From Coleofasciculus sp. B1-GNL1-01 (GTDB taxonomy: Bacteria > Cyanobacteriota > Cyanobacteriia > Cyanobacteriales > Coleofasciculaceae), in assembly GCA_040220235.1 (NCBI GenBank), contig JAVJTO010000059.1: a DNA stretch of 64,000 nucleotides; one strand, given 5' to 3'. This document shows positions 63,001 to 64,000 of this stretch, one piece after another. The position numbers are program-made. Within the stretch, counting starts at the first letter, position 1, and every line of letters starts with the position of its first letter.

Positions 63001-64000
63001 GCATTTGCCCAACATCCCGGTATTCCTGGTTGGGGTGTTCCCAGAATACTGGTAATCTGTAAGTTGGCTGGACCTAAATGCCAGGGGTGTTCGGGATTCA
63101 GATTTAACCACAGGTGGGTTAATTGACTGAATAAAGTATCATCGAGTAGGGAAATTCGCCACCAACAGGGAGTTCCTGTGGGAATTGGTTTATGATGTTG
63201 CCAGTACAGATTAGCCGATGCTGAATCACTGCGATGCTGAATTTGTAGGGGACTCAGGGTAAAGGCTTTATCGGATTTGGCTTCGTGGAGATAATCGCCT
63301 AGGTTTCTATCGACAGAACTGACTAGGTTAAGAAATAGGGCGTGTAAATGGCGTCCACTGAGAAACTGTGGCGGAATTGGCGATTGGGGAAGCAGGTTTA
63401 GAATTAGGCTATGGGGCATAGTTTCAATCCCTGATAGGGATTATAAGTAGGTGGACACAATAAAAGAAGAGCGGTGGAGATCGTCATTCGTCATTTGTCA
63501 TTCGTCCTTTGTAAGGGTTTGAGGCTTGTTTACAAAACTTAGTACAGTGCCGTTTTCTTTTGTCCGAATACTTAGAGGATTTTGACTTGCGGAGGTATGC
63601 ACCGAATAGACACTTTGAATTGATTTTTGTTTCAATCCCTGATAGGGATTATAGAGGATTTCGACATGGATCATGAATCAGCGTCTTTGCACTGGCTAAG
63701 TTTCAATCCCTGATAGGGATTATAGAGGATTTCGACCTAGCTGGGGGATGTAGTCTTTGCTGTATTGACAAGTTTCAATCCCTGATAGGGATTATAGAGG
63801 ATTTCGACTAACATCAACGAACCCCTTTGATTTAAGCAATTTGTTTCAATCCCTGATAGGGATTATAGAGGATTTCGACCAGGGATTCTTATAGGCGTAT
63901 TACGTAATCCTAAATGTTTCATAGGGTCGAAGGAAAGATTTATCTTTCTCAGCTCCCATTCAAAACCGAACGAGCAAGTTTCCAAGCATTCGGCTCCTAG

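What a model noticed while it worked through the whole genome (the two positions that open the first line are those of the whole stretch)
63400..64000. Group II intron sitting inside a CRISPR repeat, at the same repeat position in two different arrays of the genus
The CRISPR array next to cas6 (g02946) on C59 (minus strand; 37-nt repeats starting at 63879, 63808, 63736, 63665) is broken by a group II intron: domains V-VI end at C59:63921 and are followed at once by GAAAC, the last 5 nt of a repeat, then a 36-nt spacer and the next repeat. The intron thus lies in a repeat, inside the 8-nt crRNA handle, and splicing from the pre-crRNA would restore it. A 99% identical intron end sits at the same repeat position in another Coleofasciculus genome, in an array with a different repeat and other spacers, which argues for repeat-directed homing. 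A copy of the repeat's 3' half also ends 1 nt before the cas6 start codon (C59:63420-63443).
Evidence so far: rna.tsv: Intron_gpII RF00029 C59:63921-63998 (-), 51 bits; CRISPR-DR5 rows. Sequence read in calls 33, 34, 36. Congener locus G302:C8:397-541, 99% over 145 nt, junction read in call 54 (found by call 53: 1 of 8 congeners). The 20-mer junction occurs in 1 other public genome record. The finding spans contig positions 63400 to 64060; this window holds only 63400 to 64000 of it.
(Added by a program. Inside this text positions count along the whole contig: contig position 1 is position 1 of the stretch shown here. "Call 12" and the like, gene names such as g00115 and contig names such as C1 are that model's own, and its searches are not shown. 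The text may have been shortened before it was handed on; [...] marks where a part breaks off. The agent that wrote the report below was given it as the finding of a first reader that could run no searches.)

Follow-up and report, generated by a model that had tools for sequence, protein, structure and literature searches.

The report
Group II intron inside CRISPR repeat
The window ends inside a self-splicing, protein-less group II intron inserted exactly within a CRISPR repeat, and a second, unrelated intron lineage occupies the same spot in many other cyanobacterial CRISPR arrays, so CRISPR repeats appear to be a regular landing site for these mobile introns.

Summary
On the minus strand, a group II intron end (RF00029, 51 bits, 63998-63921) abuts GAAAC, the last 5 nt of the 37-nt repeat. 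A 36-nt spacer, four perfect repeats and cas6 follow.

The 5' junction is missing from this genome but present twice in congener G004. There, two different leaders are each followed by repeat nt 1-32, then an identical 134-nt intron start. Together 32 + 5 nt make one whole repeat. This genome holds the matching uninterrupted sites.

The intron is about 1.05 kb and shows no ORF in the 670 nt seen. Five different 3' flanks all begin GAA(A/G)C (two genomes, four metagenome runs).

A second, unrelated lineage, mostly carrying an RT-maturase-HNH gene, sits 4 nt before the repeat end:
- 18 of 18 readable 5' junctions lie in CRISPR repeats.
- 8 of 8 loci read at both ends resume with AAAC.
- 33 of 251 genomes sampled in one cyanobacterial family match it.
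- Its EBS1 loop pairs with the repeat.

Splicing, mobility and the target-pairing sequences of the window's own intron are not shown. Five literature searches found no report of this. Earlier scan notes describe an ORF-less intron in a CRISPR leader and ORF-less introns in REP palindromes, on other DNA.

The parts
63921..64000 (-). 3' end of an ORF-less group II intron. Domains V-VI lie at 63998-63921, and the intron runs on to the contig end at 64060. The last bases are ...CGACCCTAT.
   Evidence: RF00029 scores 51.1 bits against a cut-off of 40. It is 99% identical to G004:C8:397-536. Logan contigs are 95-100% identical over 536 nt.
63916..63920 (-). GAAAC, the last 5 nt (nt 33-37) of the interrupted CRISPR repeat and the start of the 3' exon. 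A shared G means the boundary could equally lie one base to the right (ATTG|AAAC).
   Evidence: Read. The same 5 nt follow the intron in G004 and in runs X2, X9 and X12; run X1 has GAAGC.
63880..63915 (-). Spacer of 36 nt, the first after the intron.
   Evidence: Its length is close to the 34-35 nt of the other spacers.
63629..63879 (-). Four perfect 37-nt repeats (63879-63843, 63808-63772, 63736-63700, 63665-63629) with three spacers of 34, 35 and 34 nt.
   Evidence: Each repeat scores 46.3 bits on RF01318 CRISPR-DR5. The repeat finder family D1.
63552..63586 (-). Degenerate terminal repeat (GTCAAAATCCTCTAAGTATTCGGACAAAAGAAAAC), after a 42-nt spacer.
   Evidence: family D2.
63421..63458 (-). 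Partial repeat whose last 25 nt (hairpin plus ATTGAAAC) are identical to the array repeat. It ends 1 nt before the cas6 start codon.
   Evidence: RF01318 scores 36 bits, below the cut-off of 40. Read.
62589..63419 (-). cas6 (276 aa), co-directional with the array and the only cas gene in this part of the window.
   Evidence: TIGR01877 cas_cas6, 81.3 bits. PF19308 and PF10040. The next gene is a cytosine deaminase on the other strand.

Best explanation
The window ends inside a non-autonomous (ORF-less) group II intron of about 1.05 kb. It lies in the sense orientation of the pre-crRNA, within one 37-nt CRISPR repeat. The insertion point is between nt 32 and 33 (ATT|GAAAC), or one base later (ATTG|AAAC), because a shared G makes the two indistinguishable. 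This places it inside the 8-nt crRNA 5' handle, directly after the repeat hairpin. It is 3-4 nt downstream of where Cas6 is expected to cut (recalled knowledge of 8-nt handles, not tested here).

Inferred mechanism: the intron arrived by retrohoming, meaning reverse splicing into the repeat DNA followed by reverse transcription. The reverse transcriptase/maturase would be supplied in trans by one of the intact intron-encoded proteins in the genome. The target would be chosen by pairing of the intron's exon-binding loop with the 3' arm of the repeat hairpin plus the next 3-4 nt.

CRISPR repeats suit such an element: they are multi-copy, conserved, transcribed and non-coding. Removing the insert restores an exact repeat, so the cost to the host can be small.

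At least two unrelated cyanobacterial intron lineages use this niche.

Shown: the junctions, the precise insertion, several independent contexts, the empty sites, and the second lineage with its EBS1-repeat pairing.

Inferred: splicing, present-day mobility, the trans-acting protein, the EBS-IBS pairing of this particular intron, and any effect on crRNA production.
For: 1. The 3' junction is in the window.

2. Two 5' junctions are in congener G004. C243 reads leader + GTCGAAATCCTCTATAATCCCTATTAGGGATT | GGGGCGACTCG... C179 reads leader + GTTTAAACTCCCCTGAATCCCTATCAGGGATT | GGGGCGACTCG... The next 134 nt are identical in both, up to the contig ends. 32 + 5 nt make one repeat with no target duplication.

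3. The 134 nt align with the 5' end, and the 536-nt 3' part with domains III-VI, of complete 880-nt ORF-less introns in G055 and G236. On the sense strand, stop-to-stop frames within the 536 nt are at most about 60 aa.

4. Five different 3' flanks were seen. G000 and G004 each have their own. Run X2 has GAAAC plus another spacer. Runs X9 and X12 have GAAAC+AAAGATAAGA. Run X1 has GAAGC.... Repeats ending in ATTGAAGC occur naturally.

5. Empty sites exist in G000. C21:~45725-45761 has a leader and an intact solo repeat, with a flank 90% identical to the G004:C243 flank. C122:~4401-4422 lies between flanks syntenic with G004:C179 and C8.

6. 14 DNA runs from 7 studies hold 42-54% of the sampled words of the 301-nt query. 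The four that were laid carry the intron at 95-100% identity, on contigs of 1098-1342 nt in three of them.

7. At least 5 intact RT-maturase genes are present in G000.

8. A second lineage occupies the same site. L086 reads ...AGGGATTG | GTGCGAC...(2446 nt; 589-aa RVT_N, RVT_1, GIIM, HNH protein)...CCCATT | AAAC. Relatives occur in 33 of 251 sampled genomes of one family. All 18 loci with this 5' end and a visible exon sit after repeat hairpin + NNNG, and the repeat recurs 2-20 times in the locus. All 8 loci read at both ends resume with AAAC, and 7 then continue with a spacer and another repeat. The EBS1 hairpin loop pairs with exon -1..-7 fully in 8 of 12 loci and with one mismatch in the other 4; loop position 5 (A or G) tracks exon -3 (U or C).
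Against: In G000 itself only 140 nt of the intron and no 5' junction are assembled. That copy could therefore be truncated.

The link between the 134-nt 5' piece and the 536-nt 3' piece rests on three indirect arguments, not on a contig I could read through:
- the repeat arithmetic (32 + 5 = 37 nt);
- synteny of the flanks;
- homology to complete introns.

The 5' end reads GGGGCG or GGGCG, not the canonical GUGYG.

The candidate EBS2/EBS1 motifs in the part seen are weak. They are L009 103-109 TGATAGG, and 120-124 AATCC or 194-200 AATCCTT. A pairing at least as good arose in 52 of 1000 shuffles, and the MFE fold buries them (z -1.97).

No CRISPR repeat was found beside 20 loci of this intron's more distant DNA relatives (0 of 20). 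Its closest relatives, in G055 and G236, sit at a non-CRISPR site.

For L086, a simple complementarity scan was not significant on its own (149 and 179 of 1000 shuffles). The case for that lineage rests on the hairpin context and the 12-locus comparison.

No RNA data were examined, so splicing is untested.
Confidence: 0.8

Rival explanations
1. Targeting is directed by structure rather than by sequence. The intron would recognise the DNA hairpin of the palindromic repeat and insert at its 3' foot, as class C (IIC) introns do at terminators and attC sites. EBS-IBS pairing would contribute little.
For: The insertion point is at, or 1 nt after, the last base of the 7-bp stem AATCCCT/AGGGATT. Three repeat types that differ in their 5' halves are hit. 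The second lineage also inserts 3-4 nt after a hairpin in repeats of several Rfam families (DR5, DR37, DR57, DR10-like). 4 of 12 of its loci carry an EBS1 mismatch.
Against: In the second lineage the EBS1 loop pairs 6-7 of 7 with the hairpin's 3' arm in all 12 loci, and loop position 5 co-varies with the exon. That is ordinary IIA/IIB-style recognition. Domain V has the AGC triad and resembles plastid-type D5 models (RF04356; RF04357 for G055), not the IIC form as I recall it. The two mechanisms are not exclusive.
Confidence: 0.12
2. There was one old insertion that has since been shuffled. The intron entered a repeat once, and the different flanks arose through recombination between arrays and loss of spacers, not through repeated homing. 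The element would now be immobile.
For: X9 and X12 carry the G004 locus minus one spacer-repeat unit, which shows array turnover next to the intron. Only 1 of 8 congeners has the intron.
Against: The 5' flanks are two different leaders with two different repeat types, while the intron is 100% identical over 134 nt. Both G004 sites have empty counterparts in G000. Moving the intron by recombination would need homology 3' of it, where only 5 nt are shared. Intron variants are 95-100% identical while their flanks are unrelated.
Confidence: 0.1
3. In G000 the element is only a dead 3' fragment, a 5'-truncated retrohoming product or deletion remnant, lying at the upstream edge of the array.
For: Only 140 nt are assembled. 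Neither the 5' 134 nt nor the middle of the intron exists anywhere in the 172 contigs.
Against: The contig stops exactly 140 nt into the intron. That is what a k=141 assembly graph gives when a shared repeat branches; the G004 contigs are named k141 and stop 134 nt in. A ~1-kb shared piece would be dropped from a binned genome. This is an inference. Full-length copies exist in four metagenome runs.
Confidence: 0.12
4. The element is a domesticated switch. By sitting in the crRNA handle next to the Cas6 site, or in the leader-proximal repeat, it would control production of the downstream crRNAs, read-through into cas6, or spacer uptake.
For: The position is 3-4 nt from the expected Cas6 cut. 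Both readable 5' junctions in G004 are in the first repeat after the leader. cas6 lies downstream on the same strand, with no minus-strand promoter-like site found in 63300-64000.
Against: The G004 loci are orphan mini-arrays. The element is present in only 1 of 8 congeners and is absent at the same loci in G000, which is the behaviour of a selfish element. In the second lineage the intron sits in middle, penultimate or last repeats, so no fixed position is conserved. No expression data were examined.
Confidence: 0.05
5. The feature is an assembly chimera joining an intron contig to a CRISPR contig.
For: Both are repeated sequences, and the junction lies 140 nt from a contig end.
Against: The same junction appears in an independent MAG and in Logan contigs of four runs from four studies. 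Complementary 5' junctions exist. The analogous junctions of the second lineage lie inside multi-megabase contigs.
Confidence: 0.02

Closest known systems
ORF-less group II introns of Thermosynechococcus elongatus, mobilised in trans by proteins of related introns (Mohr, Ghanem and Lambowitz 2010). Recalled, not read here; also named in scan notes e1-7328530 and e1-5238966.
   Same: It is a cyanobacterial group II intron of about 1 kb without a reverse transcriptase gene. It is present in several near-identical copies in a genome that has intact intron-encoded proteins.
   Different: The target is a CRISPR repeat rather than a protein gene or another intron. The helper protein is not identified. 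No sequence relationship was tested.
Class C (IIC) and attC group II introns, which insert after terminator or attC hairpins. [quoted passage not shown]
   Same: Insertion is in a fixed register at the 3' foot of a DNA/RNA hairpin in a multi-copy, non-coding target.
   Different: Domain V and the size do not look like IIC. In the second lineage a 7-nt EBS1-IBS1 pairing is seen, and its protein carries an HNH domain, which IIC proteins lack as I recall.
Tn7-like transposons of cyanobacteria that target CRISPR arrays (Chacon Machado and Peters 2025, PMC11837452; outline and abstract read).
   Same: It is a mobile element of cyanobacteria that uses CRISPR arrays as a safe, widely shared landing site at a fixed position.
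   Different: Those are DNA transposons that recognise the repeat with TnsD and land in the spacer. Here a retroelement lands inside the repeat itself, can in principle remove itself from the RNA, and lies in the crRNA handle.
The CRISPR-repeat-resident intron lineage found here (L086 and 18 loci in one cyanobacterial family).
   Same: It occupies the same place in the repeat (..G|AAAC, against ATT|GAAAC or ATTG|AAAC here) in the same sense orientation. It has ORF-less derivatives of 727 and 885 nt.
   Different: It is a different ribozyme: only 33-35 nt of domain V are alike (about 88%). Its 5' end is the canonical GTGCGACTATC. Most copies encode an RT-maturase-HNH protein. It sits in middle to last repeats, not in the leader-proximal repeat.
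Scan notes on other DNA: e1-7328530 (ORF-less group II intron in a CRISPR leader) and e1-5238966 (ORF-less introns homing into REP palindromes). These are AI notes and were not checked here.
   Same: They describe non-autonomous group II introns in or beside CRISPR arrays, or in short palindromic multi-copy repeats.
   Different: One is in the leader, not the repeat. The other involves REP elements, not CRISPR.

Membership tests
Group II intron (Rfam RF00029 and the general definition) | Domains V-VI match above the curated score | tested here: met
   51.1 bits against a cut-off of 40, model positions 1-77 of 77, window 63998-63921 (-). G004 gives the same score.
Group II intron (Rfam RF00029 and the general definition) | 5' end GUGYG | tested here: inconclusive
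   The congener's 5' end reads GGGGCGAC, or GGGCGAC if the first G belongs to the exon. That is one deviation from GUGCG. The relatives G055 and G236 start GTGCGAC and GTGCGGC.
Group II intron (Rfam RF00029 and the general definition) | Domains I-IV present | tested here: inconclusive
   The 5' 134 nt and the 3' 536 nt align with complete 880-nt introns. No Rfam D1-D4 model matched. About 380 nt of domain I are unseen.
Group II intron (Rfam RF00029 and the general definition) | Precise insertion without target-site duplication | tested here: met
   Repeat nt 1-32 lie before the insert and nt 33-37 after it. The empty sites read ...AGGGATTGAAAC.
Group II intron (Rfam RF00029 and the general definition) | EBS1/EBS2 complementary to the 5' exon | tested here: inconclusive
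   Candidates lie at L009 103-109, 120-124 and 194-200. 52 of 1000 shuffles did as well.
Group II intron (Rfam RF00029 and the general definition) | Splicing | not testable with these tools
Autonomous (protein-encoding) group II intron | RT/maturase ORF in domain IV | tested here: not met
   No long frame occurs in the 536 nt before the 3' end. The total length of about 1040-1069 nt, taken from the X12 contig, leaves no room for an RT.
CRISPR array (CRISPR-DR5 type) | Identical direct repeats with unique spacers of similar length, a repeat family match and a cas gene nearby | tested here: met
   Four repeats of 37 nt score 46.3 bits against a cut-off of 40. Spacers are 34-36 nt. cas6 is adjacent. 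A second array with the same repeat lies on C26 after a cas2-like end and a leader.
Class C (IIC) hairpin-targeting introns | IIC ribozyme form (short, altered domain V) and an En-less protein | tested here: inconclusive
   Insertion after a hairpin is met. Domain V has AGC and resembles plastid-type D5 models. No IIC reference was compared.
CRISPR-repeat-resident lineage of L086 (defined here) | 5' end GTGYGACTRTC, a conserved domain I, and the EBS1 loop YCCNNTCCT | tested here: not met
   BLAST of the window's intron parts against L086, L096, L097 and L098 found only domain V (33-35 nt at about 88%) and a 28-nt repeat match.

The most novel reading that the evidence does not exclude
CRISPR repeats are a dedicated homing niche for at least two unrelated group II intron lineages. 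Their fixed place inside the 8-nt crRNA handle, 3-4 nt after the Cas6 cut, couples two RNA-processing reactions. If Cas6 cuts first, the intron loses its 5' exon and the downstream spacer loses its handle. If splicing comes first, the repeat is rebuilt. On this reading the intron would act as a conditional switch on crRNA output. In the leader-proximal repeat it would also block spacer uptake, so it would be more than a passenger: a regulator or a mild anti-CRISPR element.
Probability: 0.2. Interest if true: 0.9.

Novelty: new variant of a known kind. Interest (0 to 1): 0.8.

Why it matters
Group II introns are known to choose targets by base pairing and to favour harmless sites. A CRISPR repeat as a regular target was not found in the literature searched.

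It matters for three reasons:
- It adds a retroelement to the short list of mobile elements that exploit CRISPR arrays; Tn7-like elements are the known case.
- It places a self-splicing ribozyme inside a precursor that is also cut by Cas6 a few bases away. This is a natural system in which splicing and crRNA maturation must compete or cooperate, and it can be tested directly with RNA-seq and in vitro assays.
- CRISPR array finders and spacer-history analyses will split or mis-order arrays that carry 0.7-2.5 kb introns inside a repeat. 33 of 251 sampled genomes of one cyanobacterial family match this second lineage, and all 18 copies whose 5' flank could be read lie in a CRISPR repeat.

Tried and rejected
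- A JGI metagenome scan for the 24-mer intron end gave 0 matches.
- A genome-collection scan for the 22-mer found only G004.
- In G000 I searched for the 5' junction, the 5' 134 nt and the intron interior; none was found.
- I looked for the second 3' junction of G004 through synteny with G000:C21. Synteny breaks at G004:C60, so nothing was learned.
- An EBS search in the G055 intron by plain complementarity was uninformative. Its EBS1 hairpin was later read by eye.
- The MFE fold of L009:1-300 had z -1.97 and was not trusted.
- An order-wide pattern scan for DR5 hairpin + G + 1-2 nt + GCG matched 3 of 401 genomes. All three were repeat variants ending GAAGCG or GAGGCG, not introns.
- The second metagenome scan also returned L085, a chance match inside a coding region.
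- A promoter/terminator scan of 63300-64000 found one plus-strand promoter-like site and no terminator, fewer than the shuffles gave.
- Parts of the stretch without cover say nothing either.
- I considered Cas1-Cas2 or RT-Cas1 integrating the intron as a 'spacer'. I rejected this because integration would leave the insert between two full repeats, not at nt 32/33 of one repeat.
- No complex or structure predictions were needed.
- Literature: five searches found no paper that places a group II intron inside a CRISPR repeat. Passages were read in 10.64898/2026.07.20.739571, PMC6360697, PMC4143802, PMC2853384, PMC4424553 and PMC8632793, and the outline and abstract of PMC11837452. Subscription journals are not covered. 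A survey of CRISPR-Cas in multicellular cyanobacteria that I recall (Hou et al. 2019, RNA Biology) did not turn up in a search for its topic terms together with 'group II intron', and I have not read it.
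Full report
**What is in the window**

Everything below is read on the minus strand. The last 80 bases of the window (64000-63921) are the 3' end of a group II intron. Rfam's domain V-VI model RF00029 matches 63998-63921 over its full length, at 51.1 bits against a cut-off of 40. The intron ends ...CGACCCTAT.

The next five bases (63920-63916) are GAAAC. 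A 36-nt spacer follows, then four identical 37-nt repeats, GTCGAAATCCTCTATAATCCCTATCAGGGATTGAAAC. They start at 63879, 63808, 63736 and 63665, and each scores 46.3 bits on CRISPR-DR5. The spacers between them are 34-35 nt.

After a 42-nt spacer comes a degenerate repeat (63586-63552). About 90 nt further lies a partial repeat whose last 25 nt (63445-63421) are identical to the array repeat. It ends one base before the ATG of cas6 (63419-62589). cas6 is the only cas gene here; the next gene is a cytosine deaminase on the other strand.

**Why the contig stops**

The contig is 64060 nt long, so only 140 nt of the intron are assembled. This tail occurs once in the 172 contigs.

Nothing else of the intron is in the assembly. 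A search with the congener's 536 nt found nothing more, and so did searches with the 134-nt 5' end. No copy of repeat nt 1-32 is followed by anything other than GAAAC.

The congener's contigs are named k141, and they run 134 nt into the intron from the 5' side. A contig that runs exactly 140 nt into a shared element is what a k=141 graph gives at a branch. I therefore infer that the source sample held the intron in more than one context, and that the ~1-kb shared core was left out of the binned genome. This is inference, not a tool result.

**The missing 5' junction**

Its contig C8 starts with 536 nt of intron, followed by GAAAC, a 34-nt spacer and a repeat with a different 5' half (GTTTAAACTCCCCTGAATCCCTATTAGGGATTGAAAC). 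On the sense strand, no stop-to-stop frame within these 536 nt exceeds about 60 aa, so the intron has no protein gene.

I then searched G004 for the repeat hairpin. It has 29 copies. Two of them lie at contig ends and are not followed by GAAAC:
- C243 reads leader + GTCGAAATCCTCTATAATCCCTATTAGGGATT + GGGGCGACTCG...
- C179 reads leader + GTTTAAACTCCCCTGAATCCCTATCAGGGATT + GGGGCGACTCG...

The 134 nt up to both contig ends are identical. Both interrupted repeats directly follow typical leaders, like those of the intact arrays on G000:C26 and G004:C141.

Thirty-two nt before the insert and five after it make exactly one repeat. A G is shared by both ends, so the insert is either GGGGCG...CCCTAT (site ATT|GAAAC) or GGGCG...CCCTATG (site ATTG|AAAC). 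Either way, removing it restores ATTGAAAC.

**Are the two pieces one intron?**

I could not read a contig that joins the two pieces. The link rests on three arguments:
- the repeat arithmetic;
- synteny: the flank of G004:C179 and the flank of G004:C8 match the two sides of one locus in G000 (C122:2060-3092 and ~4400 onward);
- homology: complete 880-nt ORF-less introns in G055 and G236 (95% alike) align with the 134-nt piece at their 5' end and with the 536-nt piece over domains III-VI.

A Logan contig of run X12 (1098 nt) is identical to G004 over positions 1-541 and runs 533 nt further upstream. This bounds the intron at about 1040-1069 nt. Roughly 380 nt of domain I remain unseen.

**Independent contexts and empty sites**

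Sampled 31-mers of a 301-nt stretch spanning the intron tail and the first repeats are held at 42-54% by 14 DNA runs from 7 studies. The habitats are microbial mats, mangrove, tidal flat, hypersaline lake and marine sediment. I laid four of these runs on L009:1-700:
- X12 and X9 carry the intron followed by GAAAC+AAAGATAAGA. This is the G004 locus without one spacer-repeat unit.
- X9 also has the G004 form.
- X2 has a 95% variant followed by GAAAC and another spacer.
- X1 has a variant followed by GAAGC. Repeats ending ATTGAAGC exist in other genomes.

Together with G000 and G004, that makes five different 3' flanks. X12 also shows a contig in which a repeat runs into GGGCGACTCGTTCACC.

G000 has the uninterrupted form of both G004 sites. 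At C21 there is a leader with an intact solo repeat ending AGGGATTGAAAC, with a flank 90% identical to that of G004:C243. At C122 there is a degenerate repeat.

This presence/absence pattern combines near-identical introns with unrelated flanks. It argues for repeated site-specific insertion rather than one old event. Array turnover beside the intron also occurs, as X9 and X12 show.

**How the target is chosen**

For the window's own intron this question is open. The part I could read holds candidate motifs complementary to the repeat:
- L009 103-109, TGATAGG, against CCTATCA;
- L009 120-124, AATCC, or 194-200, AATCCTT, against (A)GGGATT.

A pairing at least as good arose in 52 of 1000 dinucleotide shuffles, and a fold of the region is not trustworthy.

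Its nearest relatives, in G055 and G236, sit at a non-CRISPR site, GTAGGTTG(C/G)GTGA|. In them a hairpin loop UUUCACCC matches that exon, as I read it. None of 20 loci holding more distant DNA relatives has a CRISPR repeat at Rfam's thresholds.

A helper protein is plausible. G000 has at least five intact RT-maturase genes, on C161, C34, C45 and two on C83.

**A second lineage at the same spot**

A metagenome scan for 'DR5 hairpin + G + 1-2 nt + GCGAC' returned L086. Its structure is:
- a DR5-like repeat ending ...AATCCCTTAAAGGGATTG;
- then GTGCGACTATC...;
- a 2446-nt intron with a 589-aa protein carrying RVT_N, RVT_1, GIIM and HNH domains;
- a domain V-VI match of 50 bits;
- the end ...CCCACCCATT;
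- then AAAC.

The exons join to ATTGAAAC.

DNA relatives of its domain I were found in 4 of 401 genomes sampled across the phylum, all in one family (4 of 45). A larger sample of that family gave 33 of 251 genomes.

One search returned 30 loci, and I examined 26. The four dropped ones had matches that did not reach the 5' end. The 26 break down as follows:
- 18 have the 5' end GTGYGACTRTC with a visible upstream flank. All 18 lie directly after a CRISPR-type hairpin plus ATGG, ACGG, ACTG or ATTG, and the repeat recurs 2-20 times in the locus.
- One lies at a contig end.
- Two had mis-placed starts.
- Five belong to a divergent subgroup at non-CRISPR sites.

Rfam calls the repeats DR37, DR57 and DR10-like in three loci.

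I fetched eight loci with both ends. All eight resume with AAAC, and seven then continue with a spacer and another, sometimes degenerate, repeat. Six introns are 2388-2458 nt. Two are ORF-less derivatives of 727 and 885 nt. The interrupted repeat is a middle, penultimate or last one. One array carries two insertions.

A conserved hairpin about 260-285 nt into the intron has the loop YCCNNUCCU. Loop positions 3-9 pair with exon positions -1 to -7 in all 12 loci where both are readable. The pairing is full in 8 loci and has one mismatch at -2 in 4. Loop position 5 is A or G where exon -3 is U, and G where it is C. L086, with exon -2 U, has A at loop position 4 where the others have U opposite G. 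This is ordinary EBS1-IBS1 recognition aimed at GGGA-Y-K-G|AAAC.

The window's intron shares only 33-35 nt of domain V with this lineage. Two unrelated ribozymes therefore use the same place.

**Likely biology**

From general knowledge of 8-nt crRNA handles (recalled, not tested), Cas6 should cut between ...AGGG and ATTGAAAC. The intron would then lie 3-4 nt downstream of the cut, inside the handle of the crRNA made from the next spacer. The hairpin that Cas6 binds is intact in the 5' exon, and it contains the presumed IBS1.

Two outcomes follow:
- If Cas6 cuts first, the intron keeps only a 3-4-nt 5' exon and the next spacer has no proper handle.
- If splicing comes first, a normal repeat is rebuilt.

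An insert of about 1 kb in the leader-proximal repeat, as in G004, should also disturb spacer integration, which measures the repeat length.

None of this is shown. The patchy distribution and the orphan mini-arrays in G004 fit a selfish element in a low-cost site better than a host function.

**Comparison with what is known, and novelty**

Three kinds of element are already known:
- ORF-less introns served in trans;
- hairpin-seeking IIC/attC introns;
- Tn7-like elements that target cyanobacterial CRISPR repeats (PMC11837452, abstract).

Five full-text searches, and the passages read in seven papers, gave no report of a group II intron inside a CRISPR repeat. The library lacks most subscription journals.

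Earlier notes of this scan describe an ORF-less intron in a CRISPR leader and ORF-less introns in REP palindromes, on other DNA. These are related ideas but not the same finding.

I rate this a new variant of a known kind: site-specific group II introns with a new and biologically loaded target.

Noticed in passing
window 63417-63458 (-): The 3' 25 nt of a repeat (hairpin plus ATTGAAAC) end one base before the cas6 ATG. The array is co-directional with cas6, and no minus-strand promoter-like site was found between them. cas6 may be read through from the array and released, or regulated, by Cas6 cutting its own 5' UTR.
   Followed up: partly
L086:2465-2563 (-): In this low-coverage metagenome contig, the repeat copy upstream of the invaded one ends ATTGGTGC instead of ATTGAAAC. 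GTGC is also the first four bases of the intron. This could be the scar of an imprecise intron loss, or an assembly error.
   Followed up: no
L132 (G692:C6:602500-609800), minus strand: Two intron starts of the second lineage lie in two repeats of the same array (...GGGGACTG| and ...GGGGACGG|), about 2.1 kb apart. The first intron is an 885-nt ORF-less copy.
   Followed up: partly
G004:C141:29380-31200 (L072 and others): The congener's large array (26 repeats, after cas1-cas2 and a leader) has the same repeat as the window, except that it ends ATTGGAAC instead of ATTGAAAC. It carries no intron.
   Followed up: no
G000 contigs C83, C117, C134, C34, C45, C161: Seven further group II intron 3' ends lie in this genome. 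At least five have intact RT-maturase genes. The C117 and C134 copies lie at contig ends in near-identical flanks.
   Followed up: partly
L011 (G236:C4), minus strand ~1750: The G236 copy of the related ORF-less intron is cut off in the 3' half of domain V; AT-rich DNA that I did not identify follows.
   Followed up: no
G000:C26:64344-64595 (-): A second small array (4 repeats plus a degenerate fifth) has exactly the window's repeat. It lies directly after a cas2-like gene end and a leader, and is uninterrupted.
   Followed up: partly
PMC2853384, section 3.5.2: The Arthrospira platensis NIES-39 genome paper gives CRISPR1 as two coordinate blocks 5.2 kb apart and reports about 150 group II introns. 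The cause of the split is not stated. It could be another intron-in-array case.
   Followed up: no
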